The notes: generated by a model from the letters alone, not told the origin. 64,000 nt of DNA from an archaeon (GCA_023259115.1 JAHFQW010000005.1:2091-66090); one strand, 5' to 3'. Positions 17,903-57,314 are shown, counted from the stretch's first letter. A program made the numbers and translations.

Positions 17903-17937
17903 ATAATTAAAAAAATTTACTCTATGAGGTGAATGAT

Positions 17938-22360: not shown

Positions 22361-22367
22361 GAGTAGT

Positions 22368-37429: not shown

Positions 37430-37470
37430 TTATAGGCGGTTATTCAAAGTCCTCTATAAATTGACTCAAT
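37430..37470. repeat. degenerate copy of the dispersed hairpin element
   Basis: GGTTATTCAAAGTCCTCTATAAA (37448-37470) matches the right arms at 1989-2000 and 2052-2070. The left arm here is degenerate. Confidence 0.6.
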
Positions 37471-38071
37471 CACACAAATACAATACTGTTTCTATCAAAC
37501 CGCCGCTATCTGTAGAAATAGGATTTAAACCAGAACTATCTCGAGGCCGATTTTTTGGACATCCTCCTCTCGTTTTAATTTGACTTAGAGAAATGGGTGT
37601 TGCACTTTTATAGATAAGATTGATGTTTAGTTCATAACGCTTGTTCCATTTGCCTAATGTATCATTTAATAGTTGAGCGGCGGTGTCTTGGAAGAATTGA
37701 CAGCAGTGGGTGTTCTGAGGGTTGTATTTGTTGTGGCAACTGTAGATTATACACCCTTGAGGATTATTATAGTTGTTGGCGCAATCTTCTAAAATATCTT
37801 TGCCTAGAGAGGGATTAACAATACTGCCGTCCTGCTGTGTACAAATAACATTTGTCTTTAAAAGAGCGGTCGCAGAAGATGTGGCAAGACCTTTACGAGT
37901 AAATATTTTTTTACTGGGATCTTGCTGGAGAGCGAAGATTGCCATAAAGAGCATACCAAGGGTTATGAGAATAACAATAATGACCAAACCGACCATTTCC
38001 ATTTGGGCTTTTTTGTTTTGGCTTATGAAGCAGGGAGAGGTTCTGTTGGAGTTGGGAGATGTTTTATTCAT
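37466..38071 (-). CDS. type IV pilin-like protein with a class III signal peptide
   Basis: N-terminus ...NKKAQMEMVGLVIIVILITLGMLFMAIFAL: a basic K-K-A/Q junction followed by a hydrophobic helix of about 22 aa. The globular part is Cys-containing. Confidence 0.55.
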   Translation of the reverse strand: MNKTSPNSNRTSPCFISQNKKAQMEMVGLVIIVILITLGMLFMAIFALQQDPSKKIFTRKGLATSSATALLKTNVICTQQDGSIVNPSLGKDILEDCANNYNNPQGCIIYSCHNKYNPQNTHCCQFFQDTAAQLLNDTLGKWNKRYELNINLIYKSATPISLSQIKTRGGCPKNRPRDSSGLNPISTDSGGLIETVLYLCD

Positions 38072-38616
38072 GAATACACCTCAATTGTAATATACCCATA
38101 GCTGTATTGAGGGAGAGTGTCGATGCGAAGCTGATCTTTGAGAGTTATGACAAAAAATGTTGGTTCTTTGCGTGTCCAATCTTTGGTGATGGTGCCATTT
38201 TCAGCTACTTTGATTTTTTCTTTAGTGTAGATTGTCCATTGTTGCGGTTCGGGGTAGGTTTGAATGATAGAAATGTTACTGTAGCCAAAAACGGAGAAAT
38301 AGTAATCACCCAGATTTTCTTGGAAGAATGATTTTTCGGAATTGGCGAGAAAGTCTAATTTGGGTTTGTCGATACAATTATCTTCGGCTTCGGCTTCGCC
38401 TCTTGTACACATTAATTCAGGTAAGAATAATGTTTTTAATGTAATGTCCATAGCGCGTGACGCGAGCAATTCTTCTTTTTTTTCTTGCAGAGAGGTTTGT
38501 TGATAGCGAGCATAAAAGACAATGCCAAAGACAACTAAGATGAAAAAGATGAATAAGACGGCGATAGTTTCGGTTATGTGCAATTGAGCTTTTTTTGAGG
38601 GGAGGTGTTTGGCCAT
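38068..38616 (-). CDS. type IV pilin-like protein with a class III signal peptide
   Basis: MAKHLPSKKAQLHITETIAVLFIFFILVVFGIVF. The gene overlaps the downstream gene by 4 nt. Confidence 0.6.
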   Translation of the reverse strand: MAKHLPSKKAQLHITETIAVLFIFFILVVFGIVFYARYQQTSLQEKKEELLASRAMDITLKTLFLPELMCTRGEAEAEDNCIDKPKLDFLANSEKSFFQENLGDYYFSVFGYSNISIIQTYPEPQQWTIYTKEKIKVAENGTITKDWTRKEPTFFVITLKDQLRIDTLPQYSYGYITIEVYS

Positions 38617-38691
38617 GGGAATTGTATCTTTGTTATTTAATGGATGTTATTTGAGGGATGGCATTTAATGGGTGTGTTTAATTAAATGTAT

Positions 38692-39828
38692 TTAATATAA
38701 AGGAACGCAGTCTCCTTGCTCGGCCAAATAAGTATTGGCGATTTGGATGCCTGAGGCACCATCAAGCATTGCTTGGCAGAGGGAAAATGTAGGGTCTTGA
38801 AGACAGGTTGGGATGGTGTTGTGCAAAGATTCAATGGAAGTTTGAATATTAGGGGATGAGTCTTTATAGTAACTCAGGCAACTTTTGGTGAATTGTAATT
38901 CAGGATGTGTTTGATAGAATGAGGTTATGGATTGAGTTTTGCCTTGATAGACCGATGTGACATAGCCAAGGCGTTTGAATGCTTTTTTCATGGTGCATTG
39001 ATACATTTGGTCATTTGCTGCAAAGATGGCAGCGTAGAGAGCGGCATCACGTTCATTAGATAAGGAAATGATGGAGAGGGGTTTGAGATTTTGCTTTTTC
39101 CAGACAAGACCTTGCTTTTGGTAATATGTTACTTTTTTTTCTTTGGCTTGGTTTTCTTCTATGACTAAGCCGGAGATGGCGCTATCATCGAGAGAGCGTA
39201 ATTTAGAGGGAAGAGGAGCATTTTGTTTGATGAGTTGTCCGGTGAAGTCAATAATACGGGTGTGAAAATTTTTTTGAGGGTCGATTTGGTTATATTGTTC
39301 TGGAGTGAGAAGGTAATCACGGTTGAAGCCGGCAGTGGCATTCATGAATTCGTTGACAAATTTTTGGTTGTTGCTATATAAGTAATATCTGGTGTTGGAT
39401 GAGCTGATGTATAAAAAATCCATCACTTTATAGGGCAGAAGATAGGGCAGACTCCAAGTGATTAATTGAGGGGCTTTGAGTTCAGATGGGGCGAAGATGG
39501 CGTCTATGTTATTTTCAGAGCGAGCGCTGGTGTCTTTGAGACCGTATTGAGTGATGCCATCTTGACAGTTGAAGTAGAGGGTGTACTCTGCTAAGCCGCC
39601 TATATCAATAAAATTTTTAGTTTTTTCAGAGACGCCCGCACCGGTGAAAATGGAATCCATGGTGTTGACGAGATCTTGACCGAGTGATTGTTGGGCAGAG
39701 GCTTTTTCTTTGACAGCAATACCTACAAAGAATAGCAAGATGACAGCACCAGCGATTAATATATAGACCCAATTAAATGTGATTTCAACTTGGGCTTTGC
39801 GGTTTAACATGAGGTGATTGTACTCCAA
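38692..39828 (-). CDS. type IV pilin-like protein with a class III signal peptide (378 aa)
   Basis: MLNRKAQVEITFNWVYILIAGAVILLFFVGI. Confidence 0.55.
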   Translation of the reverse strand: MEYNHLMLNRKAQVEITFNWVYILIAGAVILLFFVGIAVKEKASAQQSLGQDLVNTMDSIFTGAGVSEKTKNFIDIGGLAEYTLYFNCQDGITQYGLKDTSARSENNIDAIFAPSELKAPQLITWSLPYLLPYKVMDFLYISSSNTRYYLYSNNQKFVNEFMNATAGFNRDYLLTPEQYNQIDPQKNFHTRIIDFTGQLIKQNAPLPSKLRSLDDSAISGLVIEENQAKEKKVTYYQKQGLVWKKQNLKPLSIISLSNERDAALYAAIFAANDQMYQCTMKKAFKRLGYVTSVYQGKTQSITSFYQTHPELQFTKSCLSYYKDSSPNIQTSIESLHNTIPTCLQDPTFSLCQAMLDGASGIQIANTYLAEQGDCVPLY

Positions 39829-39851
39829 TTAATTTTTTTGCTCCTATTAAT

Positions 39852-40424
39852 TCATTCCCTTGGTGAGGGAGAAATTTCAGTGCGATCGCCTCTGCCTTCC
39901 AACACGATACGAAATGTGCTTTGGTGAATATCTTGGCAGAGAAAGCCGAGAGGGTTGCCATCACTGTCACTCAGAGAGATGCGAAATACTTTAAGGGGAG
40001 TTGATGAAGTTGGTTTGAGGAAAACATTTTGTTCAACGCCGTTGTATCCTTTAATTTTACCATTATCATCTTTAGTTTGGGCATCTTGCCAGACGCTACA
40101 GGCAAGGGCATCTTTTGTACAGAGATCTGCCATTTCTTTAGGAGAGGAGGGAGTATCCATGTCAACAAAACAGATTTGTTCGTATTTTCCTGGAACTTGG
40201 AATTGTTTTATGCGCACGGCACCATATTCGGTATAAATTTTCTGCACACTACTCTCAAGATCGGTTTTGAATTTGACAAATTCTACTTTTTCAGCGTTGA
40301 TTAGGAAGTTGCTGATGGTTCGGTAGCCAAAAATCATGATTAAGGAGAAGGTAATAGCAGCGATGATGAAAACAAATACTTGTCCGACACCCATAGCTTT
40401 TTTATTCATGGTTTTGTGGATCAT
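39852..40424 (-). CDS. type IV pilin-like protein with a class III signal peptide
   Basis: MNKKAMGVGQVFVFIIAAITFSLIMIFGY. Confidence 0.5.
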   Translation of the reverse strand: MIHKTMNKKAMGVGQVFVFIIAAITFSLIMIFGYRTISNFLINAEKVEFVKFKTDLESSVQKIYTEYGAVRIKQFQVPGKYEQICFVDMDTPSSPKEMADLCTKDALACSVWQDAQTKDDNGKIKGYNGVEQNVFLKPTSSTPLKVFRISLSDSDGNPLGFLCQDIHQSTFRIVLEGRGDRTEISPSPRE

Positions 40425-40564
40425 TGGTTTTTGGATAGTGTTACGTTATTCAAAATGGGTTATTTGAATGTGGTTGTTTTATACGTTGATTGGTTTAATT
40501 GGATTGATTTAATTTCATTGAATAGGATTTGAATGTTGACGAGGAGGGATTTTTTGAGGAGTTT

Positions 40565-43500
40565 TTATTTTTTTTTCTTTCGCTTGTCGGAAATCTCTTT
40601 TAGTTTACTGAATAAATCTTGGGCGGATTGGGGAGTGATATTAGGAGTGTTTTTCTTTTCTGTAGTCCGGGTGGCAATGTTTTCGAGTTTTGCGAAGATG
40701 TTTTTTTCGCTGGAAGTGAGGCCAGATTGAATTTCATCTTTGTGTTGTACATATTTCTGCGCGAGTTGTTGGATGGTTGGGACGGAGGGGGTTTTATTTT
40801 GAAGTGCGGCATCGATGTGGGGAATGGATTTTGAGTCTTTGGTGAATGTGCCAAAAATAGATTCGCGAGCGCGGGATTTTATTTTTTCGCTTTCTCTTTT
40901 TTCAAATGCGCTGAATTGAGATTGGAATTTTCCAAGAGGACCAGTGGAGGTAGAAATGGGTCGATTGACGGATGAACTGGAAAATGAGGATTTGCCAGGC
41001 CCAAAAGAATTTTTGGAAGGGGATGATTTATAGTAATATATTAAATAACCGATGCCGCCAGAGATTAAGAGCAGACCTATGATCAAGACAACCCAGGCAA
41101 AGATATTTGTTTTTGTCTCTGACGAGGAGGAAGGTGAGGATGGGGTTGGTTTTTCGGGAGGAGAATTCTTTTCTTCTTTTTTGACGACGCCGTCAGCGAC
41201 ACAAGGATTTTGGGCATTGGTGTATTCTTGATAATTAGAATAACTGTCTTGGTCATAGTCTTCGTCTGTGTCTTTTATGCCATCACCGTTGCTGTCAATG
41301 TTTTTATAGTTGAGAGGGCAATTTTCGCTGTCAAATGATTGTTCCCAACTATCGGGTAAGCCGTCACCATCGGTGTCTTTTTTCTTTTCGGAAGTTGAGA
41401 GATCGGTAGATGCGCAGCCATTGGAACCGGCTTTGGCACCGTTGGTTGTTTGAGTGCATTGGTCGCAGGCGTTATTAATGCCGTCACCATCGCTATCACT
41501 AAGCGTGATGGTTTTTGCGCTGCTGAGGGTGTTATCGTTGTAGTCTGTCACGCTATAACAAATGACGCCATTAGTTGTGAAGAGAAGTTTATCTCCGGTA
41601 TAGATTTTTGTGGCTTGACAGATTTTTTCGGTTGGGGCTTGACCATAAAGAAGGGATTTGCAGCCAACGAGTTTATCATTACAATGCAATTCGACGCTTG
41701 TGAGAGTGCAAGATTGGTTTATGATGAAGTTGAGACCTGGAGGTAGGGTGTCGTTGAGACAGACGGAATCATTTTTGGAGTTGATCACAATGCCATTACT
41801 GGAAACAAAAGCACTCCAACGTCCAAGAAGGTCGGCGGCTTTGATTTGAGTGATGTAACGATGGGTAAGATTTAATTTTTCTGTAGGAATTTTTAATGGT
41901 AGTGACGGACCAAGAGTAGCGTTGAGTATGAGAGTTCCAATAAGTGATGATGGTTGAGATGATACTTGGGAGGAGGTTTGAGATGAGGAAGGAGACTTTG
42001 TATTTAATTCATTTTTGGAATTGTAATATAATTCGTAATCTTGAGTGGTATTGATATTTAATAAAGAAGAGTAGGAGGGGGATGTGGAGTAAGATGAAGA
42101 AGAGAACTGTCCTTTGTCTTGCCCAAGATCATAGATTTCATAGTAGTATTGACTGATATTATTTTTATTGGTGTAGACCATCAAGGAAATATCTTTACTG
42201 CCACAAGTGTAACTGCCATCTTCGACTTTGGTGACCATAGGTGCAGTTAAATCAATAGTGAAGGTGAATGAACCCTGGACTTTATGTTCACCTAGAATGC
42301 AGAGGAACGGGATTTTATAGATACCTTCTTCTAGGGTGAGAGAAGAAGTGTGTTGAGTTGTCCCAGCACCGTTCATAGTGGTGGAAGAAGTACTGTTAGA
42401 CGGAAGGTTGCTGGATGGAGAGTTGGTGGTGCTATTTGTTTTAGGACTTGTGCTGTTGGTTTTGGTGTTATTGCTTTTGAGATTATTTATGATAGGTGGG
42501 GTGTATTGACAGGTGGCTTTTTTACTGGTTTGGATTTGCAGTGTGACATCTTTGGTGGGAAGAATATTACCCTGTGGTGAGAAAGAGATGACGCCACCAA
42601 GTTGAGTATAATCTACGGTGAGGTTTATATTTTTTAATTCGGAGAGGTCGCCGGCGCCGTTTTTACAGATGATGTTAAATGAAAAGTCTTTTTTTAATCC
42701 CGTGAAGGTGTTTACGGCATAGGTTGTGAGATGTTTTTCAGAGAGGATATGTTTTTGATGTTGGTCTGCACCAGGTACGTCTGCTTGTGCACCAGGAAAC
42801 GCATAACTCATTAAAGAATATGTTTCTTGATTGCTGTCGCTGAATTTGCATACTGTTTTGTCATCGGTTGTGACGGTTAATTGAACGGTTGTGCCTTCAA
42901 TTATGGGATTTGGCAGGGCAAGAGCTTCTATGATCTTTGGAGGAGAGGGATCGTATTCTAGATTCATCTTTTTTTCTGGGGCAAGGTCGCTTTGGGTGTT
43001 TTCGCAGCGGACGTAGAGTGTTTTAACGCCACCTTCAGAGGGGTAGGGTGATGAGGCGGAATCGTTGGGAAAGTTATTGACGATGTAATGAGTAATGGGA
43101 TCGTAGGTGAGCTGTTTAAATGGTGGAATGTCGTTGTAGTTATAATTAGAAACAAAATCGTAGGCACATTTGGTGGTTGGGACTTTGGTGTAAAATTGCC
43201 AAGGGAAAGCGGATATTTTACTAACACCCCATACTTCGTCGTTGTAATAGTACAAATCAGGTTTTTCTAAGGTGATGCCATACCCATCGATTTGAACGCT
43301 ACCACAGAGAGGTTGGTAGAGAGGATTTTTTCCTTTATCAGTGGAATAGTAACAGATGAGGGTGGTGTTTTTTAATTCAAATGGACCAGTATATTCTTGG
43401 AATTTAGAGTTGGTGATAGATTCACACCCGTTGCCAAGACAGTAGTAGGTTTTATCACATTCAAAGCCTTGTGATTGACATTCAAATGCAACTTGTGCGC

Positions 43501-47092: not shown

Positions 47093-47119
47093 TTATAGAG
47101 AATAATGAAACTTCTTTCA

Positions 47120-47127
47120 TTTATAAA
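47120..47127 (-). promoter_or_regulatory. TATA-box-like element upstream of the 2175-aa gene
   Basis: Palindromic ATTTATAAAT, 28 nt upstream of the ATG at 47092. Confidence 0.4.
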
Positions 47128-47179
47128 TGTTCCGAGCTTAAAAGAGGGTAGAAATGAGGTTTGAGGATTGGATTGGGGA

Positions 47180-48436: not shown

Positions 48437-48484
48437 GGTTTATTCGTATCTATTTGTGGTTTATTCTTGATGTGGTCGTAGTTT

Positions 48485-50995
48485 TTACGTTTTACAGGTA
48501 TATGCTCCTTGCTCATTGGGATTGTTGGAACAGGTTCCTGGTTTTTTATTTGCTATGTTGTAGCATATTTTTGATTTTGTTTTGGAAGTGCATTCTGCAC
48601 ACGTATCTCCTTTGTTGAATTTTCCATCGCTATTTATGTCTATAACGGTTGTGGTACATACATCGGCACATCCCACAGATTCATCGTAACACCAACCGGT
48701 TTCAGTGAGACTGAATGCTGCTTTTCCAGAACAAGAAGGGTTGATTTGAGTGTTTATTTTACTTTTACATTTTATTTTTGTATCGTCGCCGCAGAGAGGA
48801 ATGTTGCCAGAAGGACGATATTGTTTTTTTTCACTACAGGTATTTCCTCTTGTGCCTTCACATGTGGCATATTCTTCTTCGACTATTGCGTTCTGATAAC
48901 AACCGGGAATAGGGTTGATGAAACATTCTTCGTCTGCTTTTTTGAATGACCAGTTGAGGTTGCAGCAGTTGTGAGTTGATACAAATGGAGTGGATAAAGA
49001 AGTTTTGGAATCGATAAAATTGCTAAAATCGGTTTTTCCTTCTTTTACGCCAAAGGTGTATTGGTCATAGGGGTAGGCATACGGATGGGCGGGATCGTAA
49101 TGGGGGATGCACTCTTTTACCTCAATGGCTGCTTCTTTGGAAGATTTCTCTTCTTTCTGACAATATGAAGCGGAGAAGGATAAGCTTAATTTACCTTTAT
49201 CAGTGAGCTGGGAAAAGAGATAGGGTTGGATGTTTTTGATGTCTATATCGGTGAAGTCGTTTTTTGGTGTTTTTTCTGAGTTGAAAAAACGCACGGTGTT
49301 TGTTCCAGATGGTAGCAATAGGTCGGTAGAAGGAATAATAAATTTGAAATCTCCTGGTGAATTGGTACTAGGTAGAACGTCATATCTTAACTCGGTACTC
49401 TGTGCATTTGCGGCATCGGATTTGCTGGGTAGACTGATACTTAGAAAGACGGGGTCCTCTTGGGAGATTATATACTTTGTTGCGGAGGGGGAGAATAGAT
49501 CGGTGTATTTTTTTCCTCCAAGGAAGGTGTAGGGAAGAGAAATACTAAAATCAGTTTTCATTGGTCGATCGATTAATACGCGAACTAATTGTTGATCTTC
49601 TGCGCTATGTTCGTCGATGGCGCGAGCAGAGATGGTATGGATTTGTTCGCTGGGATCTTGGAGGTATATTCCCGGGATGGTTAAGGTGTCAGCGAAAATA
49701 TCTTTGCCCTCTTCATCATATTTTCCTGGCCAATTTTTGTTTACAAGAGTGCTTACTGAGTCAATGCGATAGGAAATACTATCTTCATCAGGATCTATGG
49801 CATGTAGTTTTATGTTTAAATCGCCTAATTCTGGATCGTCTTTGATTACAAGATAATCGTAGTTTTTTTCAGGACAGGCGGAACGATTGATGTGATCTAG
49901 TGCAGGAGGACGGTTTTGCCTGGCGATTTGAAATGAGTATGGTTGAGGTTGGGTGAGAATGTTAGGATAGGGAGATTGGAAGATGAAAATGTCGTCGCCG
50001 GTATTTGTTGTTTGTTTGTCCAGAGAGATATCGAGGGTGGTGTAGATATCAGAGAGCGTTTTGCGCTGACAGTCGTAGTATTCTTTCGTATCAAGGGTGA
50101 TCTTTTGGCATGCTTCGTTAGGGATGTCTTTGGTGTTGCCGTAGGTGAAAGAGGGTTGTTGAAGAATAGGGTGAGTGTAATTGAAATCGACATATTTTTG
50201 ATCCCATTGCAAGGGGAATAAGATGGCGGCGTTGAGGAGTTGTTGGAATTTAGTAGGATAGAAAAAATCAAAGGTAGTTAATTGGAAGAGTTCTTCGCTA
50301 CCAAGTTTGAATTTGAGAGGATATTGGACTTTGACGTTTATACCGTCGTTTTCTATACTGAGTTGCAGATCAAGATTGGTACTTTCGACTTCGGCTTTAT
50401 CAGAGATGTTACTTTTGGTGAAGTTTTCGACGCACCAAATCGTCCTATTTATTAAGAAATTTTTGAGATCTTTTTCGATGATATCTTTTTTGAGTTGCAG
50501 TTCGCCAAAGCCTACTTTAGTGTCGGGATAGGTGTATTGACAAGGTAAAGAGGCATCGAGGGTGTTGTCGCAGGGGAAAGAGTTTTCTGTCTCTTTTTTA
50601 GGATATATCTCTTTGGTGATGCCATAGGCGATGCGATTGCCGTTTTCTGAAGGATAGGTAATACCGGTAATGCCTTGGACGAAGATAGCAGTGCCGCCAG
50701 GTTGGTCTTGCCAGATTCTTCCTTGTTTTCCTAGCAGGATTAAGCCTTGTTCGAGATTATCTTGCAGGCAATCTTCAACGTAGATGCGCAGGGCTTCTTT
50801 TTTGAAGATGTTACTTAAAACTTTTTCTTGTTGTCCGGCGAGTTGTTCTTTTCGGACGCTGAAGGTGAGGGTTATGATAAATATAGCGATGAATAAGAGC
50901 ATGATGCCGAGAATCATAAAAATGGTGATTTGTCCTTTGGTAGAATATTTAATAGAGTGTTTAGTAGAATGCGATGTCAACCTCTTTTGGTACAT
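48485..50995 (-). CDS. large (836 aa) pilin-like protein with a class III signal peptide and a Cys-rich C-terminal domain
   Basis: N-terminus ...STKGQITIFMILGIMLLFIAIFIITL (a KG/Q junction plus a hydrophobic helix). The C-terminal 180 aa or so is dense in Cys. Confidence 0.55.
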   Translation of the reverse strand: MYQKRLTSHSTKHSIKYSTKGQITIFMILGIMLLFIAIFIITLTFSVRKEQLAGQQEKVLSNIFKKEALRIYVEDCLQDNLEQGLILLGKQGRIWQDQPGGTAIFVQGITGITYPSENGNRIAYGITKEIYPKKETENSFPCDNTLDASLPCQYTYPDTKVGFGELQLKKDIIEKDLKNFLINRTIWCVENFTKSNISDKAEVESTNLDLQLSIENDGINVKVQYPLKFKLGSEELFQLTTFDFFYPTKFQQLLNAAILFPLQWDQKYVDFNYTHPILQQPSFTYGNTKDIPNEACQKITLDTKEYYDCQRKTLSDIYTTLDISLDKQTTNTGDDIFIFQSPYPNILTQPQPYSFQIARQNRPPALDHINRSACPEKNYDYLVIKDDPELGDLNIKLHAIDPDEDSISYRIDSVSTLVNKNWPGKYDEEGKDIFADTLTIPGIYLQDPSEQIHTISARAIDEHSAEDQQLVRVLIDRPMKTDFSISLPYTFLGGKKYTDLFSPSATKYIISQEDPVFLSISLPSKSDAANAQSTELRYDVLPSTNSPGDFKFIIPSTDLLLPSGTNTVRFFNSEKTPKNDFTDIDIKNIQPYLFSQLTDKGKLSLSFSASYCQKEEKSSKEAAIEVKECIPHYDPAHPYAYPYDQYTFGVKEGKTDFSNFIDSKTSLSTPFVSTHNCCNLNWSFKKADEECFINPIPGCYQNAIVEEEYATCEGTRGNTCSEKKQYRPSGNIPLCGDDTKIKCKSKINTQINPSCSGKAAFSLTETGWCYDESVGCADVCTTTVIDINSDGKFNKGDTCAECTSKTKSKICYNIANKKPGTCSNNPNEQGAYTCKT

Positions 50996-51083
50996 AATTA
51001 AATATGAAACAAAGAGGACTTATAAACATTGCTTGAATGGAGAGGCTGGAGGTATGACTAGACTTTTAAGATTCATTGATATC

Positions 51084-54000
51084 TTAAGATTCTGTGGTGT
51101 TGATGCGCAGGTTGTTTGTTAACATAGGCCAGAAGAAGTCTAATCCCTTGTTGGCTTCAACGCGTTGGATGTTGTCATTCTGAGTGCAGGAGATGTATTT
51201 TTTACCGGTGGCTTTTTCGAGTAGTTCGATTTTTAATGAAGAGTCGGTGGGAGTGAGGTGATTGATGTACTCACATATTGATGTGTCAAAATTTTCATAT
51301 TCGGCGATGAGGGTTTGATTGTTGCCTTGAACTTCTTTGATGGCGGAGACTTTATGTCCAGCAATAGTTGAGAGATAGATTTCTTTCATGTTTTTTGCTT
51401 GGGTGAGGAGAGGGAATTGCTCAGATGAAGTGGTTTTTTTGTCAAAGAGGTTTTTGAACCACGAGGTGATTTGGTCGATGATGTTGCCGCTGGCGGTAAG
51501 AGGGGTTTTGGAATAGATGAGGGCATTAAGATTGGGGTCGTACCACAGATCGCCAGGTATGCCAAGGTTGTCTAAATTACATTTAACAAACGTGTCTTGG
51601 TTATTTGATTGACATACCTTGAGTTTATCAGGGGGGATGTTGAGAGCGTTGAGGAATGATTCTTTATCATCGAGAGGTTTATTTAAGGTTGTACCAAAGG
51701 CAGTTGTGAATTTGCCGTTTTCTTTGTATTTTAAGATGCAGATGTTATTTATGCAAGTATTATCTTTAGGGGGTACGAGTTTTCCTGTGGGATCGTTTAA
51801 TTTGAAACAGACATTTTGAGTGGGAGTTGTGGTGGTTGTTGTTTTCTGGCCAAGTCCCAGAGGTTGGGAAGCGAGAGGAGGTGGTTGGATGCCAAAAATG
51901 TAATTTTCTTTGTTGTCAAATTCGAGTAAAGCGTTTTGGGGAGGTGAACAGGATAAGATGTATTCATCGGATTGAGCGATTTCGAGTAGTTTTGCGGCGA
52001 CGGATTTGGTGCGTGAAGTCCACTGGCCGTTGTCGCAGTAGTGATCTAAGATAGATTCTTTGTCATTGATGCAGAGGGGAGTATTTCCTTTGGTGAAGTC
52101 GCTGGCGGTATAGCTGAGGCGTTTGGTGTTGTCTTCGCTAGATGAAGAAGGGGAGACGAAGCATTGATTGTTTTTACTGCAGAAGCCCCATTGTTCGCCG
52201 TTCCAATCCCATTTCAAAGAAGATTTTGTCCACTCGCCGTTGATGCAACGATAGTCTCGACCCGCACTGATGTGTTCGGCGTAGAATGAAGAGGTGTCCA
52301 TGGATTGTACGCAGGCGTAGCCGTTCCAACACGAGTTGTCAGGACAGCAGGAAAGACCGGCACGGGAGATCTTTTCAGGATTTTGATAGTTGTATTCTTG
52401 TACGGCGCCAAGCTCATCGATGGATTGAAGAAGAGGTTGATTTAGAGTGCAAGGACCTATGAATTGAAGGGTGATGTATGAAGCATCGGCGGTATCGAAT
52501 GGGGAAGAAGAGAGAGGAAGTGGTTCTTTGCCTGCGAGGCTGATTTTTGTGATACACTTTCCTTTGTAGGTGAATTGAATGTTGGTGTTTTTCGGAAGAG
52601 AGATACGTTCGGAGATCAGTGTTTCGTCTTTTTCAAGAGTGAGGGTTTTGTCTTTTGATCTGAGATATTCGTCTTTTAGATTTGTGCCGTCGCTCTTTCG
52701 AATTTCCCAGTGAGGGATGGTGTCAAATTGCATTTGAAATTCGGCATTGGGAATAAAGTTGCGGGTGGGAAGTACTTGAGAGGTATGATTGCGCTGCATA
52801 GGAGGAATGGGGGTATCTTTAATGTTTTGAAGCAGTGGTTGATAGGTGGAGAGGTCGAATGAATTGCCATCGGTGGTTTTTCCGTTTGTGGGGATTACGT
52901 GTTGGTAGCCGATTTCTGTTAATGGGGTGTCATCCCATGAACTGATGACGGTAAATGCATCTTTTGTCTCGCCGCGTTGCGCAGAGGGAGCGCAGAATTT
53001 TTGGCCTAATGTGGAACAGGAGGGTTTGTTGTTTGTTGCAGTTATTTTATTATTGGCAATGAGATACTCTGCGGCGTTGCAACCATAGAATCCGGCGGTT
53101 AGACCGTCGCTGGTGAAGAGGACTTGCTGGGCGACTTTTTTGGCTTTGATGTTGCCGGTGGTTTTGAAGTTGTTATGAGTTGAGTCTATGAGCGTTTCTT
53201 TGAGATTTCCTTTGTCATCTTTTTCTATGAAGTATAATTCGTAGAGATCGGGATGAGGATTGGTGATGGTGTACGGTGGAAGACCAGGGAGAGGATAGAG
53301 ACAGGTGGAAGAGGAGCAGGGGTAGAGAAGGTTCTGATTTTTTGGGGTATTGGTCAAGCTTATATTGATTTTTTGAGTTGATGCAACAACAGAAATATTA
53401 GAGAGAAGAGAGTCATCAATAATGTCAATTCTAATATCAGGGTTATCAGAAGTGATAGCAAAAAGATCGGCATAATTACCAAACCGGGCAAAACTAAATA
53501 GAATTCTTTTTTCGCCAAAGATGAGATTGTTTTCTTCAAATTTAGTTTTTTCTTTTTTTGAATTTAAAACAAATCCATATAAATTCATATTAATTTTATG
53601 GGGTTGATGGGGTGAATATTGCTCCTCGGAAAGTAATGATAAGTTGACTTTATCTATAAATTGGTTAATGAGGGATTCAGGATGTGGACAATTGGTGAGA
53701 TGTGTATCACATTCAGCGGCAAAAAAGAGAGGAGGTGTATTCCCTACTTTTTTTCCTTCTCTGGCAAATGTAAAATAAGCATATGTTTGATCTGATTTAA
53801 ATTCATTGTAATTAGACCAACTTAAACCAGAAATAGCATGAATATCATTATAATACCCAGGAATTATTGAAAGAGAGTAAGATTGTATATTAGTAACGGG
53901 GTTGAATGGAAAATCACATTTTGAAGGATAGCCTGGTGTATTTTCTTTGTCTTTGGAGCAATAAGAGATGGAACTGTCTTGTTTAACATCTAAAAACCAA

Positions 54001-56174
54001 TTAAAATCAACAAGAGGATAAGAGACCAATGTATTATTTTCTGTATACCCCACTTCCATCTCTACATCCATCACACTCTGATTCGATTTGATTGGCTGGG
54101 AGTTCCAACATCCGTAATATTCTTTTTTGTCACCAAGAGGTTTGCTTTTGCCGGCGTAGTATTCGTGTTCGGAGTTGCCACAGCAACTGGCAGAGGATTG
54201 GGTGACTTCGAGGTTGTTGCCTAGCCAGGCGTGGTCGCCGTAGAGTTGAGTACATAACTGTTCGCCGTTGACTTCAGTGCTTGGATCGTTGCTGTCAGCA
54301 CCCTCTTTGAGCCAAGAGCTGGATCCCTCTTTTGTGGTGTCTTTGCCAGAACAGAGTGGTTCGCTATCATCTTTGCTCAAATAGATGTTGCGAACTTCTA
54401 TATCATTAGTTGAGGGTTGTGCGCTGATGACAATTGATTTGATACCTTTGAGATCTTTAGGTAGGGGTACTTTGATGTGCATGAATGTGGTGGGATCGAA
54501 GAAGCTATTGGTGGCATAGCCTAAGACATCTTCATTGAAATACGTAAGAGGTTTCTGATCACTTTGGATTGGGCCATCAACTCGTACCGTGAGACCGAGG
54601 GGAAGATTGAGTTTTTCCCAAGAGAGAGGTTCGAAGGTTTTGTCATCTTTCTGCTTGCCAAATTTGACCATGAAATTGAGATAATTGTAGTTGGTGAAAT
54701 CCAAAGAGTACTCTTTGGTGTTGTACGTATCTTTATAATAAGATGATGGGATATCAATGACTTTACCTACACGAGAACTGTCCGTTCCACCTTTATCATC
54801 TTTGAAGAGGGGGAGAGTGTAGAGTGCTTCTCCTTGAAAACGGCCTTTGAGACCGATGTTTTTTCGACTGGAGAGTTCGTTGGCACACTCCGCCCAACTC
54901 CAATGATTCCCTTCGCGATAGCATTGGAAGCGATTGGCAGTTTTGAGTAAGTCTTCGTAGATGCCATTACCACCGGGAGAGGCGGGTTGTAGGTTAGTTG
55001 TTTTGTCTTGACATTTTTGCCAGGTTTCACCGTTGGAGACGATATCATACGGTTCTTGGTCGGTATTGATGGTGAGAATGGCAAACTGGGCGTTGGCATT
55101 CGATGCGGACAGCCAGGTGTAATCGCTCTTTTTATCATTATTACTTTTGTCAAAGGGGGGATTTTTTATAGCTGGGTCGTATTTAACGTGCTCTTTATCA
55201 ACGCAGATATATTGGCTGAAGCCACCTTTCGCGGTGATGACTGTACCAATATCATTAGGGTCGTCACCACAGCAGTTGTTTTTGTTGTCTTTGTCTTGCA
55301 TCCAGGCGAATGAGAGATGTTGTTGGTTTTGATCGGGATTTTCGCAGGCATCTTTGTCATCATTAGGAGTTAATGCGTCTTTGTCATCGCAATTGTTGTC
55401 TACGCCGTCACCTGCAACTTCTTTGGCAGCAGGATTGATGCAGATGGCACAAGAAGAATATTTTTGATTGCTACAATCTGTTGGAGATTCGATATCTGTA
55501 CAGAAGCTAGAATCTTTTGAAGGTTCATCAGTACAATCACCTTGTTCTTTAGTTATACCATCATGATCTTGATCTGAACCAAGGTCTTGCCATTGAGCAA
55601 TATTATCTTTGATGGAGCATTGGAATAGTTTCCCACCCCCCCATGTTTTTGCATATTTTTTTTCTGTTTTTCCTTTTTTGGCTACGTCATCTGTGCACAC
55701 GTGCCAATAGCTATCGTATCCGCATACACCTTGGCCACCAACAACTCGTATCTGATTACTATGGATAATATTACGATAATCATCACTATCTTGTAGGTCA
55801 GAATAAGAATTCGCATCATATATTTTGCGATCATATGAAGTTAGTGTGCCACTAGTAAAAACCCCATATCCGTAAGAATCGGAATCGTCAATAACATCAC
55901 CACAACTATCATCTTCAACACCAAAAAAATAACACCCGCCGATAGTAAATGTAGTTGGCCAGCCTGACCCTTCGTTACAACCAACGCCTTTAAAAGAGCC
56001 AAGGTCATTTTCAAAAGAAGCGTCATAATCCGCGTTATCGTTCCCCCCATCATCATCTCCATGTGCAAAAAGATTTTGATATTTTGGTTCATCCACTGCA
56101 TGGACAGAATGAAATGAGAAAATAACTATAAGTAGAAATAACACTACGAAAAACATACCTCTTTTTTTGTTCAT
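51084..56174 (-). CDS. giant (1696 aa) secreted Cys-rich protein
   Basis: Signal peptide MNKKRGMFFVVLFLLIVIFSFHSVHA. Recurrent CCG(D/N) motifs and GDGVDNNCDD. No C-terminal TM segment. Confidence 0.7.
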   Translation of the reverse strand: MNKKRGMFFVVLFLLIVIFSFHSVHAVDEPKYQNLFAHGDDDGGNDNADYDASFENDLGSFKGVGCNEGSGWPTTFTIGGCYFFGVEDDSCGDVIDDSDSYGYGVFTSGTLTSYDRKIYDANSYSDLQDSDDYRNIIHSNQIRVVGGQGVCGYDSYWHVCTDDVAKKGKTEKKYAKTWGGGKLFQCSIKDNIAQWQDLGSDQDHDGITKEQGDCTDEPSKDSSFCTDIESPTDCSNQKYSSCAICINPAAKEVAGDGVDNNCDDKDALTPNDDKDACENPDQNQQHLSFAWMQDKDNKNNCCGDDPNDIGTVITAKGGFSQYICVDKEHVKYDPAIKNPPFDKSNNDKKSDYTWLSASNANAQFAILTINTDQEPYDIVSNGETWQKCQDKTTNLQPASPGGNGIYEDLLKTANRFQCYREGNHWSWAECANELSSRKNIGLKGRFQGEALYTLPLFKDDKGGTDSSRVGKVIDIPSSYYKDTYNTKEYSLDFTNYNYLNFMVKFGKQKDDKTFEPLSWEKLNLPLGLTVRVDGPIQSDQKPLTYFNEDVLGYATNSFFDPTTFMHIKVPLPKDLKGIKSIVISAQPSTNDIEVRNIYLSKDDSEPLCSGKDTTKEGSSSWLKEGADSNDPSTEVNGEQLCTQLYGDHAWLGNNLEVTQSSASCCGNSEHEYYAGKSKPLGDKKEYYGCWNSQPIKSNQSVMDVEMEVGYTENNTLVSYPLVDFNWFLDVKQDSSISYCSKDKENTPGYPSKCDFPFNPVTNIQSYSLSIIPGYYNDIHAISGLSWSNYNEFKSDQTYAYFTFAREGKKVGNTPPLFFAAECDTHLTNCPHPESLINQFIDKVNLSLLSEEQYSPHQPHKINMNLYGFVLNSKKEKTKFEENNLIFGEKRILFSFARFGNYADLFAITSDNPDIRIDIIDDSLLSNISVVASTQKINISLTNTPKNQNLLYPCSSSTCLYPLPGLPPYTITNPHPDLYELYFIEKDDKGNLKETLIDSTHNNFKTTGNIKAKKVAQQVLFTSDGLTAGFYGCNAAEYLIANNKITATNNKPSCSTLGQKFCAPSAQRGETKDAFTVISSWDDTPLTEIGYQHVIPTNGKTTDGNSFDLSTYQPLLQNIKDTPIPPMQRNHTSQVLPTRNFIPNAEFQMQFDTIPHWEIRKSDGTNLKDEYLRSKDKTLTLEKDETLISERISLPKNTNIQFTYKGKCITKISLAGKEPLPLSSSPFDTADASYITLQFIGPCTLNQPLLQSIDELGAVQEYNYQNPEKISRAGLSCCPDNSCWNGYACVQSMDTSSFYAEHISAGRDYRCINGEWTKSSLKWDWNGEQWGFCSKNNQCFVSPSSSSEDNTKRLSYTASDFTKGNTPLCINDKESILDHYCDNGQWTSRTKSVAAKLLEIAQSDEYILSCSPPQNALLEFDNKENYIFGIQPPPLASQPLGLGQKTTTTTTPTQNVCFKLNDPTGKLVPPKDNTCINNICILKYKENGKFTTAFGTTLNKPLDDKESFLNALNIPPDKLKVCQSNNQDTFVKCNLDNLGIPGDLWYDPNLNALIYSKTPLTASGNIIDQITSWFKNLFDKKTTSSEQFPLLTQAKNMKEIYLSTIAGHKVSAIKEVQGNNQTLIAEYENFDTSICEYINHLTPTDSSLKIELLEKATGKKYISCTQNDNIQRVEANKGLDFFWPMLTNNLRINTTES

Positions 56175-56202
56175 GGGATTATATATAACTAAAATAAGTA
56201 CG

Positions 56203-56210
56203 TTTATAAA
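56203..56210 (-). promoter_or_regulatory. TATA-box-like element upstream of the 1696-aa gene
   Basis: TTTATAAA, 29 nt upstream of the ATG at 56174. Confidence 0.35.
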
Positions 56211-56250
56211 TATAGCGCCATAGATTTTGTTAAATTCAGCAAAGAATAAA

Positions 56251-56808
56251 TCAAGGTTCTGGGCAATCGCTACTTTTCACAAAACAATCTTTATACCAGG
56301 GTTTTACCCATTCAAGATGTTGGCATTCGTCTTTGCCAGGGTATTCTTGTGAAGTTTCCAAGAGAAGATTGTCAACTAAACGAACACCCTTATTGGTTTT
56401 TATTGCGTATAAACTGGGGTTCTTACTTAAAGCACAAATATAAGGGTTGTAACAAGCTGGTTTAGGAGTGCTAGGGTCTAAATCGGTTTTAGAAAATGAT
56501 CTAACTAATTGAGCAGAATTATTTTGAAGTAAAGTCATGAAGTCTTCTTTTGTTTTACCGACTTCGCAATTTCCTACTTCCCAGAAATATAATTTGGTGT
56601 TTGTATTAGAACTGCTCTTCACATCTCCCCCATACGTACTCTGTGTCTGACAGAGGCCTTGCACACATATTCTATCCCCTTTACAATCGGTGTCTTTAGA
56701 ACAAGAAGTTGGGTCTGGAGTGGATGTTTGACAGTTGTAGCTACATAAGGATAATCCACTGAGGAGAGCGACTTTGCTTAAGAGGTTGTCAAGTGACATT
56801 GTAGACAC
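56251..56808 (-). CDS. small secreted or lipoprotein-like Cys-rich protein
   Basis: N-terminal hydrophobic segment LLSGLSLCSYNC, then CSKDTDCKGDRICVQGLCQ. The start is GTG 56808 or ATG 56799. Confidence 0.55.
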   Translation of the reverse strand: MSTMSLDNLLSKVALLSGLSLCSYNCQTSTPDPTSCSKDTDCKGDRICVQGLCQTQSTYGGDVKSSSNTNTKLYFWEVGNCEVGKTKEDFMTLLQNNSAQLVRSFSKTDLDPSTPKPACYNPYICALSKNPSLYAIKTNKGVRLVDNLLLETSQEYPGKDECQHLEWVKPWYKDCFVKSSDCPEP

Positions 56809-56923
56809 TTTAAAGTGGTGTTTGTATATAAATGTTGTGGTGGGAAATGGGTTTTTGAATTCGAATTTAAATATTCTATTTTTCTTATTAAAATTATGAA
56901 AAAAACAAATAATTGTCCTCAGA

Positions 56924-57182
56924 ATGGGACTTGTACCGATTTTAAAGAGAAATGGTGTTTTGAAAGCAGGTATTTTTGGTTCATATGCCCGAGGAGAACA
57001 AAAGAAACAAAGTGATGTAGATATCTTAATAAAATTTAAATGAAAGAAAAGTTTGTTAGATTTAGTGGGCTTGAAATTAGATCTTAAAAAAAAGTAAGAA
57101 AAATATAGATTTGGTTGAATATCTCACGATACATCCTAAACTTAAAAAAGAAATTTTGAATGAGGAGATACAGATTTTATGA
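56924..57182 (+). pseudogene. decayed MNT-type nucleotidyltransferase (antitoxin) gene
   Basis: MGLVPILKRNGVLKAGIFGSYARGEQKKQSDVDILIKFK, then an in-frame TGA (57040-57042). The same frame continues KKSLLDLVGLKLDLKKK, then TAA. The rest (NIDLVEYLTIHPKLKKEILNEEIQIL) is in another frame, after an A-run. Confidence 0.65.
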
Positions 57183-57298
57183 AAAGAGATACAAAAGTAT
57201 TATTGGAAGATATTTTACAAAGTATTGTATTAATTGATTCGTATGTGAAGAATTTAACAAAGGAAAAATTTACATTTACTGCTGTTTTTATAGATTAA
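57179..57298 (+). pseudogene. N-terminal fragment of a HepT (DUF86/HEPN) toxin gene
   Basis: MKRDTKVLLEDILQSIVLIDSYVKNLTKEKF... stops after 39 codons, and no Rx4-6H HEPN motif region follows. The ATGA start-stop overlap with the MNT remnant is preserved. Confidence 0.55.
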
Positions 57299-57314
57299 TT
57301 GTTTAAGTCGTAAA

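What the first reader, a model, noticed from the sequence alone, without database searches (positions are those of the whole stretch)
37466..56808. 19-kb co-directional locus mixing five class-III-signal (pilin-like) proteins with giant cysteine-rich surface proteins: a candidate attachment apparatus
Nine consecutive minus-strand genes have very short gaps and no housekeeping gene among them. Five products begin with a basic stretch, a K-(A/G) junction usually followed by Q, and a hydrophobic helix of about 20 aa. The junctions are KKAQMEMVGLV, KKAQLHITETIAV, RKAQVEITFNWV, KKAMGVGQVFVF and TKGQITIFMILG. This is the architecture of archaeal class III (type IV prepilin-like) signal peptides.

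Interleaved with them are a 2175-aa type I membrane protein, a 1696-aa secreted protein, a 418-aa relative of the former, and a 185-aa Cys-rich protein. All are packed with cysteines. They also carry beta-sandwich repeats and DxDxDG calcium-type repeats.

No assembly ATPase, platform protein or prepilin peptidase lies in the window, so the filament machinery, if any, is encoded elsewhere. In a small-genome archaeon, a pilus-like fibre decorated with or anchored by giant adhesins is a plausible host-contact device. I do not recognise this gene order as a described system.
Basis: partly seen in the sequence, partly recalled or inferred. Interest (0 to 1): 0.85.

Follow-up and report, generated by a model that had tools for sequence, protein, structure and literature searches.

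The report
Conserved Woesearchaeal pilin-plus-giant-adhesin gene cluster
This is a real gene cluster, conserved across uncultured Woesearchaeota-type (DPANN) archaea, in which five pilin-like proteins sit beside three very large cysteine-rich surface proteins; it is an undescribed candidate cell-surface contact apparatus whose function has not been shown.

Summary
Nine co-directional minus-strand ORFs lie at 37466-56808, between housekeeping genes of an archaeon.

- **Pilin-like N-termini.** Five products have a variable basic leader, then G/A, then (in four families) an invariant Gln, then a conserved hydrophobic helix. This matches EppA-type archaeal prepilin sites.
- **Structure.** AlphaFold2 gives p182 a long N-terminal helix plus a small head. 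It gives p836 a 70-residue helix plus tandem Ig-like domains.
- **Synteny.** The order p1696-p836-p418-p2175-p190-p378-p182-p201 recurs in about 20 Woesearchaeota/Nanoarchaeota genomes at 30-65% identity. The 185-aa ORF is not conserved.
- **Transcription units.** Conserved TATA boxes suggest three units: [p1696], [p836-p418] and [p2175 plus four small pilins].
- **Missing part.** In 14 of 16 relatives about nine more pilin-like genes follow, including a ~115-aa candidate major pilin. That block is absent from this window.
- **No machinery nearby.** No assembly ATPase, platform or peptidase lies in the window or within 10 kb in relatives.
- **No database match.** No pilin HMM or solved structure matches.

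Best reading (about 0.45): a heteromeric minor-pilin or pseudopilus complex presenting giant adhesins, built by unlinked type IV filament machinery. An envelope-scaffold role is a serious rival. I found no published description.

The parts
51084..56174 (-). p1696: 1696-aa secreted giant protein. It has a Sec-type signal (KRG, h-region, VHA|VD), no membrane anchor and 52 Cys. Near its N-terminus are a DQDHDG site and a GDGxDNxCD-type metal-binding motif. It appears to be its own transcription unit.
   Evidence: ORF and translation. No Pfam hit and no PDB relative. Orthologues of 1687-1865 aa (full-length ones) occupy the same position in relatives at 30-47% identity. Alignment A9 has many invariant Cys and Trp.
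56203..56210 (-). TATA-box-like element TTTATAAA, starting 36 nt upstream of the p1696 ATG.
   Evidence: A TTTAWAW element at -20..-45 is present in 3 of 5 orthologous loci.
48485..50995 (-). p836: modular pilin-like protein. Its parts are a leader ending TKG|Q, a roughly 70-residue N-terminal helix, tandem Ig/cadherin-like beta-sandwich domains and a Cys-rich C-terminal region (26 Cys).
   Evidence: More than 200 homologues, all annotated 'hypothetical', from Woesearchaeota/Nanoarchaeota. AF2 pLDDT 87.8 with helix 22-91. Foldseek matches protocadherins, S-layer SbsB and GhpA at E 1e-7 to 1e-6. Position +1 is Gln in 14/14 orthologues.
51019..51026 (-). TATA-box-like element TTTATAAG, starting 31 nt upstream of the p836 ATG.
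   Evidence: Conserved at about -30..-33 in 9/13 loci.
47180..48436 (-). p418: small type I membrane protein. It has a Sec signal, a Cys-rich 'head' homologous to the N-terminus of p2175, a TM helix at about residues 213-235, and a cytoplasmic tail homologous to the p2175 tail. It has no promoter of its own and is probably co-transcribed with p836.
   Evidence: BLASTP against p2175: head E 5e-14, tail E 7e-4. A head-plus-TM protein is present in 10/15 loci, and this interval is a variable slot. No TATA box in 0/8 loci.
40565..47092 (-). p2175: giant type I membrane protein. Its parts, in order:
- Sec signal (SYA|E)
- Cys-rich head (nt 46568-47014)
- three CarboxypepD_reg beta-sandwiches (nt 45773-46558)
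- long Cys-rich and Ig-like region
- TSP3-like DxDxDG Ca-type repeats (nt 41198-41515)
- TM helix (nt 41033-41116)
- conserved 155-aa cytoplasmic tail (nt 40568-41032)
   Evidence: Orthologues of about 2065-2180 aa (full-length ones) occur in all loci at 32-51% identity.
47120..47127 (-). TATA-box-like element TTTATAAA, starting 35 nt upstream of the p2175 ATG. This is the likely promoter of the p2175-p190-p378-p182-p201 unit.
   Evidence: Conserved at -34..-37 in 17/18 loci. Essentially absent upstream of the four downstream genes.
39852..40424 (-). p190: small pilin-like protein. The junction is KKA|MGVGQVFVFIIAAITFSLIMIFGY, followed by a small Cys-containing globular part.
   Evidence: Position -1 is G/A in 19/19 orthologues. 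Helix column identity is 0.81 against 0.63 for the rest. No Pfam or PDB match.
38692..39828 (-). p378: pilin-like protein with junction RKA|QVEITFNWVYILIAGAVILLFF. The true start is probably the ATG at 39810.
   Evidence: Position +1 is Gln in 20/20 sequences. No significant Pfam or PDB match.
38068..38616 (-). p182: small pilin-like protein with junction KKA|QLHITETIAVLFIFFIL. Glu at +6 is invariant. The gene overlaps p201 by 4 bp.
   Evidence: AF2 pLDDT 89.2, with helix 8-63 and an alpha/beta head. 532 homologues at 90% clustering. 744 clusters at 50% identity with E<=1e-10.
37466..38071 (-). p201: small pilin-like protein with junction KKA|QMEMVGLVIIVILITLGMLF. Glu at +3 is invariant. It has 9 Cys and is the last gene of the block.
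   Evidence: Its N-terminal region is related to p182 by hhalign (85% probability).
56251..56808 (-). p185cys: 185-aa Cys-rich ORF (GTG start, 12 Cys) with its own TATA-like element at 56825-56832. It is a lineage-specific accessory gene, not part of the conserved unit.
   Evidence: Weak DUF7107 and MXAN_6577-like hits. A homologue was seen only in the close relative L003. Absent from L001 and L002, where the RNase P p30 gene is followed by no p185cys homologue before the p1696 orthologue: directly in L001, after one opposite-strand ORF in L002.

Best explanation
The locus encodes the structural, non-motor part of a type-IV-filament-like cell-surface apparatus that is ancestral to a large group of Woesearchaeota-type DPANN archaea.

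Proposed mechanism (each step is marked as shown by my own tool results, taken from the literature, or inferred):
1. p190, p378, p182, p201 and p836 are made with class III signal peptides. A prepilin peptidase encoded elsewhere cleaves them after the conserved G/A. Because Gln at +1 is invariant in four families, the peptidase is most likely EppA-type. The motif is shown; processing is inferred.
2. Each family has its own distinct and highly conserved N-terminal helix. I infer that the five proteins assemble through these helices into a defined hetero-oligomer, meaning a pilus-tip or initiation complex or a short pseudopilus, rather than each forming a homopolymer. The bacterial parallel is the four or five minor pilins of T4P and T2SS.
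3. p836 adds tandem Ig-like modules and so acts as a 'modular pilin'. The fold is shown; the role is inferred.
4. p2175 is co-transcribed with the four small pilin-like genes. It is a Ca-binding, disulfide-rich giant anchored by a C-terminal TM helix, with a conserved cytoplasmic tail. p418 is its small paralogue. p1696 is a secreted giant. Together they would form the extended adhesive or contact part held on or beside the pilin complex. The anatomy is shown; the association is inferred.
5. Polymerisation would need an unlinked ATPase and platform, and in most relatives a ~115-aa major pilin from an adjacent second block that this window lacks. The block and its position are shown; its identity as the major pilin, and the need for an unlinked ATPase and platform, are inferred.

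The likely use is contact with another cell or a surface.
For: **Cleavage-site signature.** Position -1 is G/A(S) in about 90 of 90 sequences. Position +1 is Gln in 72/72. Column identity is 0.27-0.54 in the leader, 0.67-0.85 for +1..+25, and 0.55-0.65 for the rest of the protein.

**Match to known sites.** The sites match experimentally defined EppA sites, and EppA requires +1 Gln (PMC4371748).

**Acidic or polar residue near the mature N-terminus.** E+3 in p201, E+6 in p182, E/Q+3 in p378 and Q/E+5 in p190.

**Predicted folds.** p182 has a 56-residue N-terminal helix and a small beta-sheet head (pLDDT 89.2). p836 has a 70-residue helix and Ig-like arrays (pLDDT 87.8).

**Synteny.** The eight-gene order is kept in about 20 genomes at 30-65% identity.

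**Operon structure.** A conserved TATA box precedes p2175 (17/18), p836 (9/13) and p1696 (3/5). It almost never precedes the small genes.

**Second block.** In 14/16 relatives a block of pilin-like genes follows directly. Its first gene encodes a ~115-aa protein with KKGQ|GLS....

**Surface-protein features.** Cys-rich and Ca-repeat features are present. A VKOR/DsbD/thioredoxin toolkit lies in the same window.

**Precedents.** Archaeal pilin genes can be unlinked from their ATPases, as with H. volcanii pilA1-6 (PMC4371748). Archaeal T4P loci can hold two large proteins, many minor pilins and conserved cysteines (PMC4858521). TFF system 1 (Epd-like) occurs in DPANN (10.64898/2026.04.22.720090).
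Against: - No Pfam or NCBIfam pilin model hits the window proteins or 70 orthologues. For the candidate major pilin family, 1 of 64 members hits Pilin_N, at E 0.034.
- Foldseek finds no solved pilin for p182; the best E is 0.07. PDB profile searches are empty.
- No ATPase, platform or peptidase lies in the window or within 10 kb in about 20 loci. Their presence in these genomes is untested.
- p2175 has a C-terminal TM anchor and a cytoplasmic tail. It therefore cannot ride on the tip of a long pilus unless it is cleaved.
- The proteins evolve as slowly as neighbouring housekeeping enzymes. That is unusual for exposed adhesins.
- This genome lacks the second block next to the cluster, and I could not locate it elsewhere.
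Confidence: 0.45

Rival explanations
1. Envelope scaffold. p2175, perhaps with p1696, is the main S-layer-like wall protein of these archaea. The pilin-like proteins are membrane-embedded anchoring or organising subunits, comparable to the Sulfolobus bindosome, rather than parts of an extended filament or a host-contact device.
For: - p2175 has a C-terminal TM anchor, CarboxypepD_reg/Ig-like domains and 19 N-glycosylation sequons.
- The cluster is vertically inherited, sits in a fixed position beside core genes, and is conserved like housekeeping genes.
- Strong consensus TATA boxes suggest high expression.
- Foldseek lists S-layer SbsB among the matches for p836.
- S-layer-like proteins are frequent in archaeal T4P loci (PMC4858521; 10.64898/2026.04.22.720090).
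Against: - A conserved 155-aa cytoplasmic tail, shared by p2175 and p418, is not a known S-layer feature.
- The interval between p836 and p2175 is a variable slot for Cys-rich accessory proteins. That looks more like adhesin diversification.
- Nothing tests lattice formation.
Confidence: 0.25
2. Secretion pseudopilus. The five pilin-like proteins form a T2SS-like pseudopilus that pushes folded, disulfide-bonded giant proteins such as p1696 through the envelope.
For: - Four small pilin-like proteins plus one large one parallel GspH/I/J/K (my own knowledge).
- p1696 is secreted without an anchor and is encoded next to them.
- The window has a disulfide-forming toolkit.
Against: - No secretion ATPase or platform is linked in any locus.
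- No such system is described in archaea in the papers I read.
- The Ig-like modules of p836 fit adhesion better.
Confidence: 0.1
3. No type IV filament is involved. The N-termini are ordinary uncleaved signal anchors, and the cluster encodes a complex of type II and type I membrane proteins of unknown function.
For: - No pilin HMM or structural match.
- No linked machinery.
- The class III call rests on a motif and on predicted helices.
Against: - An ordinary signal anchor does not explain the invariant G/A|Q boundary in four otherwise dissimilar families (only p182 and p201 share N-terminal similarity), with a freely varying leader before it.
- It also does not explain the same motif in about nine further adjacent families in relatives.
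Confidence: 0.15

Closest known systems
Methanococcus maripaludis Epd pili (archaeal TFF 'system 1', EppA-processed pilins)
   Same: - The processing-site type is the same: [KR][GA]|Q followed by a hydrophobic helix. EppA requires Gln at +1 (PMC4371748).
- Several minor pilins accompany a small major pilin.
- Large adhesin-like proteins lie in or near the locus (PMC4858521).
- System 1 is reported in DPANN (10.64898/2026.04.22.720090).
   Different: - No sequence or HMM similarity to Epd pilins or DUF361 was detected.
- No DUF2341/PilY-like domain.
- The Epd locus carries its ATPase and two platform genes with its pilins (and, a dedicated signal peptidase); this locus has none.
- The giant proteins here are Cys-rich, and one has a TM anchor with a cytoplasmic tail.
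Pyrobaculum/Thermoproteus clade 4G type IV pili loci (Makarova, Koonin and Albers 2016)
   Same: The described architecture is nearly the same. It has two large proteins, one with a C-terminal TM domain ('S-layer-like') and one with only a signal peptide ('adhesin or minor pilin'). It also has several small diverse minor pilins, and multiple conserved cysteines in almost all components (PMC4858521).
   Different: - The phylum is different (Thermoproteota against DPANN).
- Those loci include the TFF ATPase, platform and a MinD-like ATPase.
- Homology to the proteins here was not tested, because I had no sequences.
Bacterial minor-pilin/PilY1 operon (fimU-pilVWXY1E) and T2SS GspHIJK
   Same: A set of four or five minor (pseudo)pilins is co-transcribed with a large Sec-dependent, Ca-binding, non-pilin adhesin. 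The minor pilins form a heteromeric tip or initiation complex. This rests on my own knowledge; PilY is mentioned.
   Different: - No detectable homology.
- p2175 is membrane-anchored with a cytoplasmic tail, whereas PilY1 is not.
- The organism is an archaeon with no outer membrane or secretin.
Modular type IV pilins of Streptococcus sanguinis (PilB, PilC)
   Same: p836 has the same logic: a class III signal and pilin helix with large functional (adhesive) modules grafted on (PMC8179133 and PMC9934059, titles and abstracts; fold).
   Different: The modules differ: Ig/cadherin-like arrays plus a Cys-rich domain here, against vWA or lectin modules there. There is no sequence similarity, and the system is bacterial.
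Attachment organelle of cultivated Nanobdellota (YN1, Nanobdella aerobiophila)
   Same: It belongs to the same DPANN superphylum. It is a large envelope-embedded contact structure whose genes are unknown (PMC11420986).
   Different: This is only a possible link. No gene has been assigned to that structure. I could not test whether this cluster is present in Nanobdellales. Those organisms belong to a different order.

Membership tests
Archaeal type IV pilins / class III signal-peptide proteins (TFF superfamily) | A short basic leader, a [KR][GA] processing site, and a hydrophobic stretch of about 20 residues directly after it | tested here: met
   All five proteins and their orthologues meet it. 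Position -1 is always G/A(S), position -2 is K/R in about 85%, and position +1 is Gln in 72/72 sequences of four families. The rule was my own, not FlaFind itself.
Archaeal type IV pilins / class III signal-peptide proteins (TFF superfamily) | A long N-terminal alpha-helix followed by a globular beta-sheet head ('lollipop') | tested here: met
   AF2 gives p182 a helix at 8-63 and an alpha/beta head (pLDDT 89.2). It gives p836 a helix at 22-91 followed by beta-sandwich domains (pLDDT 87.8).
Archaeal type IV pilins / class III signal-peptide proteins (TFF superfamily) | A match to curated pilin models (Pfam PF04021 Class_IIIsignal, PF07790 Pilin_N; NCBIfam archaeal N-terminal models) or to solved pilin structures | tested here: not met
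   No such hit at E<=1 for the window proteins or for 70 orthologues. Foldseek and PDB profile searches find no pilin.
Archaeal type IV pilins / class III signal-peptide proteins (TFF superfamily) | Cleavage by a prepilin peptidase (PibD/FlaK/EppA) present in the genome | not testable with these tools
   None is present in the 64-kb window or in the flanks of related loci.
Archaeal TFF system (as defined by MacSyFinder models, 10.64898/2026.04.22.720090) | ATPase, platform protein and prepilin peptidase as mandatory, co-localised components | tested here: not met
   Absent from the window and from +-10 kb in about 20 related loci. The locus is therefore a pilin/adhesin-only module.
Epd / EppA-type pilins (DUF361) | Invariant Gln at +1 of the mature protein | tested here: met
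   Met in four of five families (72/72 sequences). p190 has M/L/V at +1 and Q/E at +5. The reference is PMC4371748.
PilY1/DUF2341-type pilus-tip adhesins | A PilY1 beta-propeller or DUF2341 domain | tested here: not met
   No such Pfam hit in p1696, p2175 or p836 at E<=1.
Archaeal S-layer proteins | An abundant lattice-forming wall protein, often with a C-terminal membrane anchor and Ig-like domains | tested here: inconclusive
   The C-terminal TM helix and beta-sandwich domains are present in p2175. Lattice formation and abundance cannot be tested. The conserved cytoplasmic tail is atypical.

The most novel reading that the evidence does not exclude
The cluster, together with the second pilin block of relatives, may be the genetic basis of the DPANN cell-cell contact organelle in Woesearchaeota-type archaea. 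In this reading it is a type-IV-filament-derived heteromeric stalk. Its giant Ca- and disulfide-stabilised proteins span from the symbiont cytoplasm, through the conserved tails of p2175 and p418, to the host surface. It would then be a new, lineage-defining class of archaeal surface machine whose roughly 17 components all lack annotated homologues.
Probability: 0.15. Interest if true: 0.85.

Novelty: new variant of a known kind. Interest (0 to 1): 0.62.

Why it matters
Woesearchaeota-type archaea are among the most widespread DPANN lineages, and none has been cultivated. How they touch hosts or surfaces is unknown. Even for cultivated DPANN, the genes of the attachment organelle are unassigned (PMC11420986).

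This cluster gives a concrete, conserved parts list:
- eight genes in this window;
- about 17 genes in most relatives, once the second block is counted;
- hundreds of homologues, all currently labelled 'hypothetical' and invisible to pilin HMMs and to TFF-finding pipelines that require an ATPase.

These genes can be targeted by metaproteomics, antibody or cryo-ET labelling in enrichments, heterologous expression and complex prediction. The result also shows that archaeal class III signal proteins are under-counted in DPANN genomes.

Tried and rejected
**Searches that found nothing useful**
- Pfam and NCBIfam on all nine proteins gave only CarboxypepD_reg domains in p2175 and noise from TM helices.
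- A Pfam scan of 70 orthologues and of 64 candidate major pilins gave no pilin family.
- PDB profile searches for seven families gave nothing, or generic beta-sandwich matches.
- Foldseek on the p182 model gave nothing significant.
- Rfam and tRNA scans of the window found nothing.

**Ideas I rejected**
- The arCOG01314 'novel secretion system' and the NEQ255 family of Makarova 2015/2019 are a different system, built around MoxR, vWA and DUF4350.
- I checked whether the giants p2175 and p1696 are themselves class III substrates, because KRG precedes their hydrophobic region. I rejected this in favour of Sec signals. An AxA site follows, and the mature N-terminus then coincides with that of p418, which has a plain Sec signal.

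**Attempts to find the rest of the system**
- I tried to locate the second pilin block in the source organism. Walking off both window ends (L023, L025) showed only housekeeping genes. The closest F2 homologues belong to other organisms.
- I looked for a linked ATPase among downstream genes in L006, L010 and L013. They encode an ABC transporter, ARPP-1, vWA and CARDB proteins instead.

**Breadth and literature**
- Of ten distant p182 relatives, only one carries a name (Woesearchaeota), so taxonomic breadth beyond that label is unresolved.
- Seven literature searches found no description of this cluster.

Full report
**1. The observation**

The window is archaeal. It encodes RNase P p30, TBP, PCNA, MCM-adjacent genes and diphthamide synthase. 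Nine co-directional minus-strand ORFs occupy 37466-56808. I name them by length: p185cys, p1696, p836, p418, p2175, p190, p378, p182 and p201.

Gaps between them run from -4 to 140 bp. The flanks are housekeeping genes. None of the nine has a housekeeping domain. Pfam finds only three CarboxypepD_reg beta-sandwiches in p2175.

The quoted N-termini are correct. Cysteine is 3.1-4.5% in p2175, p418, p836, p1696 and p201, against 0.95% in nine housekeeping proteins. p418 shares both its N-terminal Cys-rich head (E 5e-14) and its cytoplasmic tail (E 7e-4) with p2175. Exact DxDxDG motifs are few, two in p2175 and one in p1696, but the membrane-proximal part of p2175 has clear TSP3-like repeats. No TFF ATPase, platform or A24 peptidase lies in the window.

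**2. The linkage is conserved, so this is a unit**

p836 has more than 200 homologues, all 'hypothetical' and without Pfam domains. They come from Woesearchaeota and Nanoarchaeota MAGs.

Contigs that encode these homologues show the same order and similar sizes: about 1700-1800 aa, 850-1050, 285-390, 2100-2175, 190, 370-385, 170-180 and 190-200. Often the same flanks are present too (RNase P p30, PP-loop, ThiF, THUMP, TBP). A scan of GTDB species representatives added 18 loci. BLAST shows the order p1696-p836-p418-p2175-p190-p378-p182-p201 in essentially all of them, at 30-65% identity.

The small pilin-like proteins are 40-76% identical across these loci. That is about the same as the flanking THUMP, ThiF and RNase P p30 proteins. 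p185cys has a homologue only in the closest relative, L003, so it is an accessory gene. p418 is the least constant member, present in 10/15 loci. The p836-p2175 interval sometimes holds other Cys-rich ORFs.

The p182 family is large: 532 clusters at 90% identity and 744 clusters at 50% identity with E<=1e-10.

**3. Transcription units**

Perfect TTTATAW elements are rare in the window, at 0.41 per kb per strand. Yet one starts 24-36 nt upstream of the start codons of p185cys, p1696, p836 and p2175. Only three other genes of the 42 checked have one at that distance.

In relatives, TTTAWAW at about -30..-37 is kept before p2175 (17/18 loci), p836 (9/13) and p1696 (3/5). It is never kept before p418, p378, p182 or p201, and only once before p190 (1/19).

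I infer three conserved units: [p1696], [p836-p418] and [p2175-p190-p378-p182-p201]. The four small pilin-like genes are therefore tied to the giant anchored protein.

**4. Are they pilin-like?**

Evidence for:
- In each of the five families, position -1 is always G/A (rarely S), and -2 is K/R in about 85% of sequences.
- In four families, +1 is Gln in 72/72 sequences.
- The leader before the site is poorly conserved (column identity 0.27-0.54). The 25 residues after it are the best-conserved part (0.67-0.85, against 0.55-0.65 for the rest). This is the signature of a discarded leader and a functional mature N-terminus.
- The sites match the EppA-processed Epd pilins of Methanococcus maripaludis (RAQI, KGQV, KGQL, KGQI), and EppA requires Gln at +1 (PMC4371748).
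- Acidic or polar residues lie at +3 to +6.
- AF2 models are confident. p182 has a 56-residue N-terminal helix and a small alpha/beta head (pLDDT 89.2). p836 has a 70-residue helix followed by domains that Foldseek matches to tandem Ig/cadherin-like arrays, S-layer SbsB and the GhpA grappling hook.

Evidence against:
- No curated pilin HMM matches the window proteins or 70 orthologues.
- No solved pilin is retrieved by sequence profile or by Foldseek.

The proteins therefore work like, and look like, type IV pilins, but membership in a described pilin family is not shown.

Each family has its own distinctive, strongly conserved helix: TETIAVLFIFF, GLVVIVILITLGMLF, GVGQVFVFIIAAITFALIMIFGY and TFNWVYILIAGAVILLFF. 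I read this as specific, non-equivalent helix packing, meaning a defined hetero-oligomer rather than five homopolymers. This is inference.

**5. The system is bigger than the window shows**

In 14 of 16 relatives where sequence continues past p201, about nine more co-directional genes follow. Nearly all have the same kind of N-terminus. The first encodes a ~115-aa protein (KKGQ|GLSLNVIIVAALALIVLVVL...), which is the obvious candidate for a major pilin. Pfam finds nothing in these genes either.

The window, L006 and L010 lack this block at that position. L028 shows the block without block 1 upstream. The two blocks are therefore separable. I could not find the second block in the source organism. 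Contigs from the same sample extend the window only into housekeeping genes.

No ATPase, platform or peptidase lies within 10 kb in any locus.

**6. Mechanism**

Best-supported model (confidence about 0.45):
- A prepilin peptidase encoded elsewhere, probably EppA-type, processes the five proteins.
- They assemble through their helices into a heteromeric minor-pilin, tip or pseudopilus complex. p836 contributes Ig-like adhesive modules.
- The complex carries or organises the giant proteins, which are stabilised by Ca and disulfides. p2175 and its mini-paralogue p418 are anchored and signal or connect through a shared cytoplasmic tail. p1696 is secreted and retained by binding.
- Polymerisation would use unlinked TFF machinery and, in most relatives, the adjacent major pilin.

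There are precedents. H. volcanii has unlinked pilin genes. Pyrobaculum/Thermoproteus 4G loci have two large proteins, many minor pilins and conserved cysteines. System 1 TFF occurs in DPANN.

Rivals:
- Envelope or S-layer-like scaffold (0.25). It is favoured by housekeeping-like conservation, fixed position, strong promoters and the C-terminal anchor.
- T2SS-like export pseudopilus (0.1).
- Plain signal anchors with no TFF link (0.15). The invariant G/A|Q boundary after a variable leader argues against this.

**7. Comparison and novelty**

The closest described kinds are Epd/system 1 pili and the clade 4G loci of Thermoproteales. The bacterial analogue is the minor-pilin/PilY1 operon, and modular pilins are the analogue for p836.

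The differences are:
- no detectable homology to any of these;
- no linked machinery;
- a giant anchored protein with a conserved cytoplasmic tail;
- lineage-wide vertical conservation.

Seven literature searches and six papers read found no description. I rate it a new variant of a known kind, namely archaeal type-IV-filament-associated pilin/adhesin loci. Interest is moderate to high. It gives a conserved, wholly unannotated parts list for surface contact in a major uncultured DPANN lineage, but the function remains inferred.

Noticed in passing
whole window 1-64000; L023 about 5000-5500 (roughly 2.7 kb beyond the window's right end): Strand composition is extremely asymmetric. The + strand G:C ratio is 17545:8525 (skew +0.35). 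GC skew at third codon positions is +0.7 to +0.87 in + strand genes and -0.41 to -0.79 in - strand genes, so it follows the strand, not the gene. The closest relatives L003-L005 share this, but more distant relatives do not. On a contig of the same organism the skew flips from +0.35 to -0.4 just past the window, near the MCM and SpoIIM-like genes. This implies a replication terminus or origin about 10 kb from the cluster.
   Followed up: partly
window 10383-12661 (-), 21944-22456 (-): The window encodes an extracytoplasmic disulfide toolkit: a DsbD-like membrane protein, a thioredoxin-like protein and a VKOR homologue. This fits many Cys-rich secreted proteins forming disulfides.
   Followed up: no
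window 17929-18354 (+), 19212-21467 (+), 22884-23387 (-), 23533-24009 (-): Three small cupredoxin-like proteins lie around a heavy-metal (HMA-domain) P-type ATPase. This looks like a copper-handling neighbourhood.
   Followed up: no
L008, L011-L015, L017-L021 downstream of the p201 orthologue (for example L018 19377-26083): Relatives carry a second block of about nine co-directional pilin-like genes: F2 of about 115 aa, then proteins of about 110, 260, 300, 100-500, 220-260, 135, 160 and 140-390 aa. None has a Pfam hit. The block follows the cluster directly in 14/16 relatives but is missing at that place in this window, L006 and L010.
   Followed up: partly
L003 7706-9952 and 3-2432: In a close relative, toxin-antitoxin or defence-type genes (RhuM, RHH plus PIN) are inserted between the p1696 and p836 orthologues, and a ParE-type toxin gene lies further upstream. 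A second, partial p1696 paralogue lies upstream of the p185cys homologue.
   Followed up: no
window 47072-47092 and 56154-56174 (N-termini of p2175 and p1696): Both giant proteins have K-R-G directly before the hydrophobic region of what otherwise looks like a Sec signal with an AxA site. K5, R6 and G7 are invariant in the 4-sequence alignment of p2175 and nearly so in the 21-sequence alignment. I could not explain why Gly is conserved there.
   Followed up: partly
window 56809-57314: A 506-bp AT-rich gap lies between RNase P p30 and p185cys, with no ORF of 80 aa or more and no Rfam or tRNA hit. In L002 the equivalent place holds an opposite-strand 239-aa gene, and in L001 the gap is only 72 bp.
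   Followed up: no
L005, L008, L010-L012, L015, L016, L019, L020 record titles: Several GTDB-representative MAGs that carry this clearly Woesearchaeota-type cluster are titled 'uncultured Methanosarcinales archaeon' in their public records. This is probably a mislabel from the submitting pipeline.
   Followed up: no
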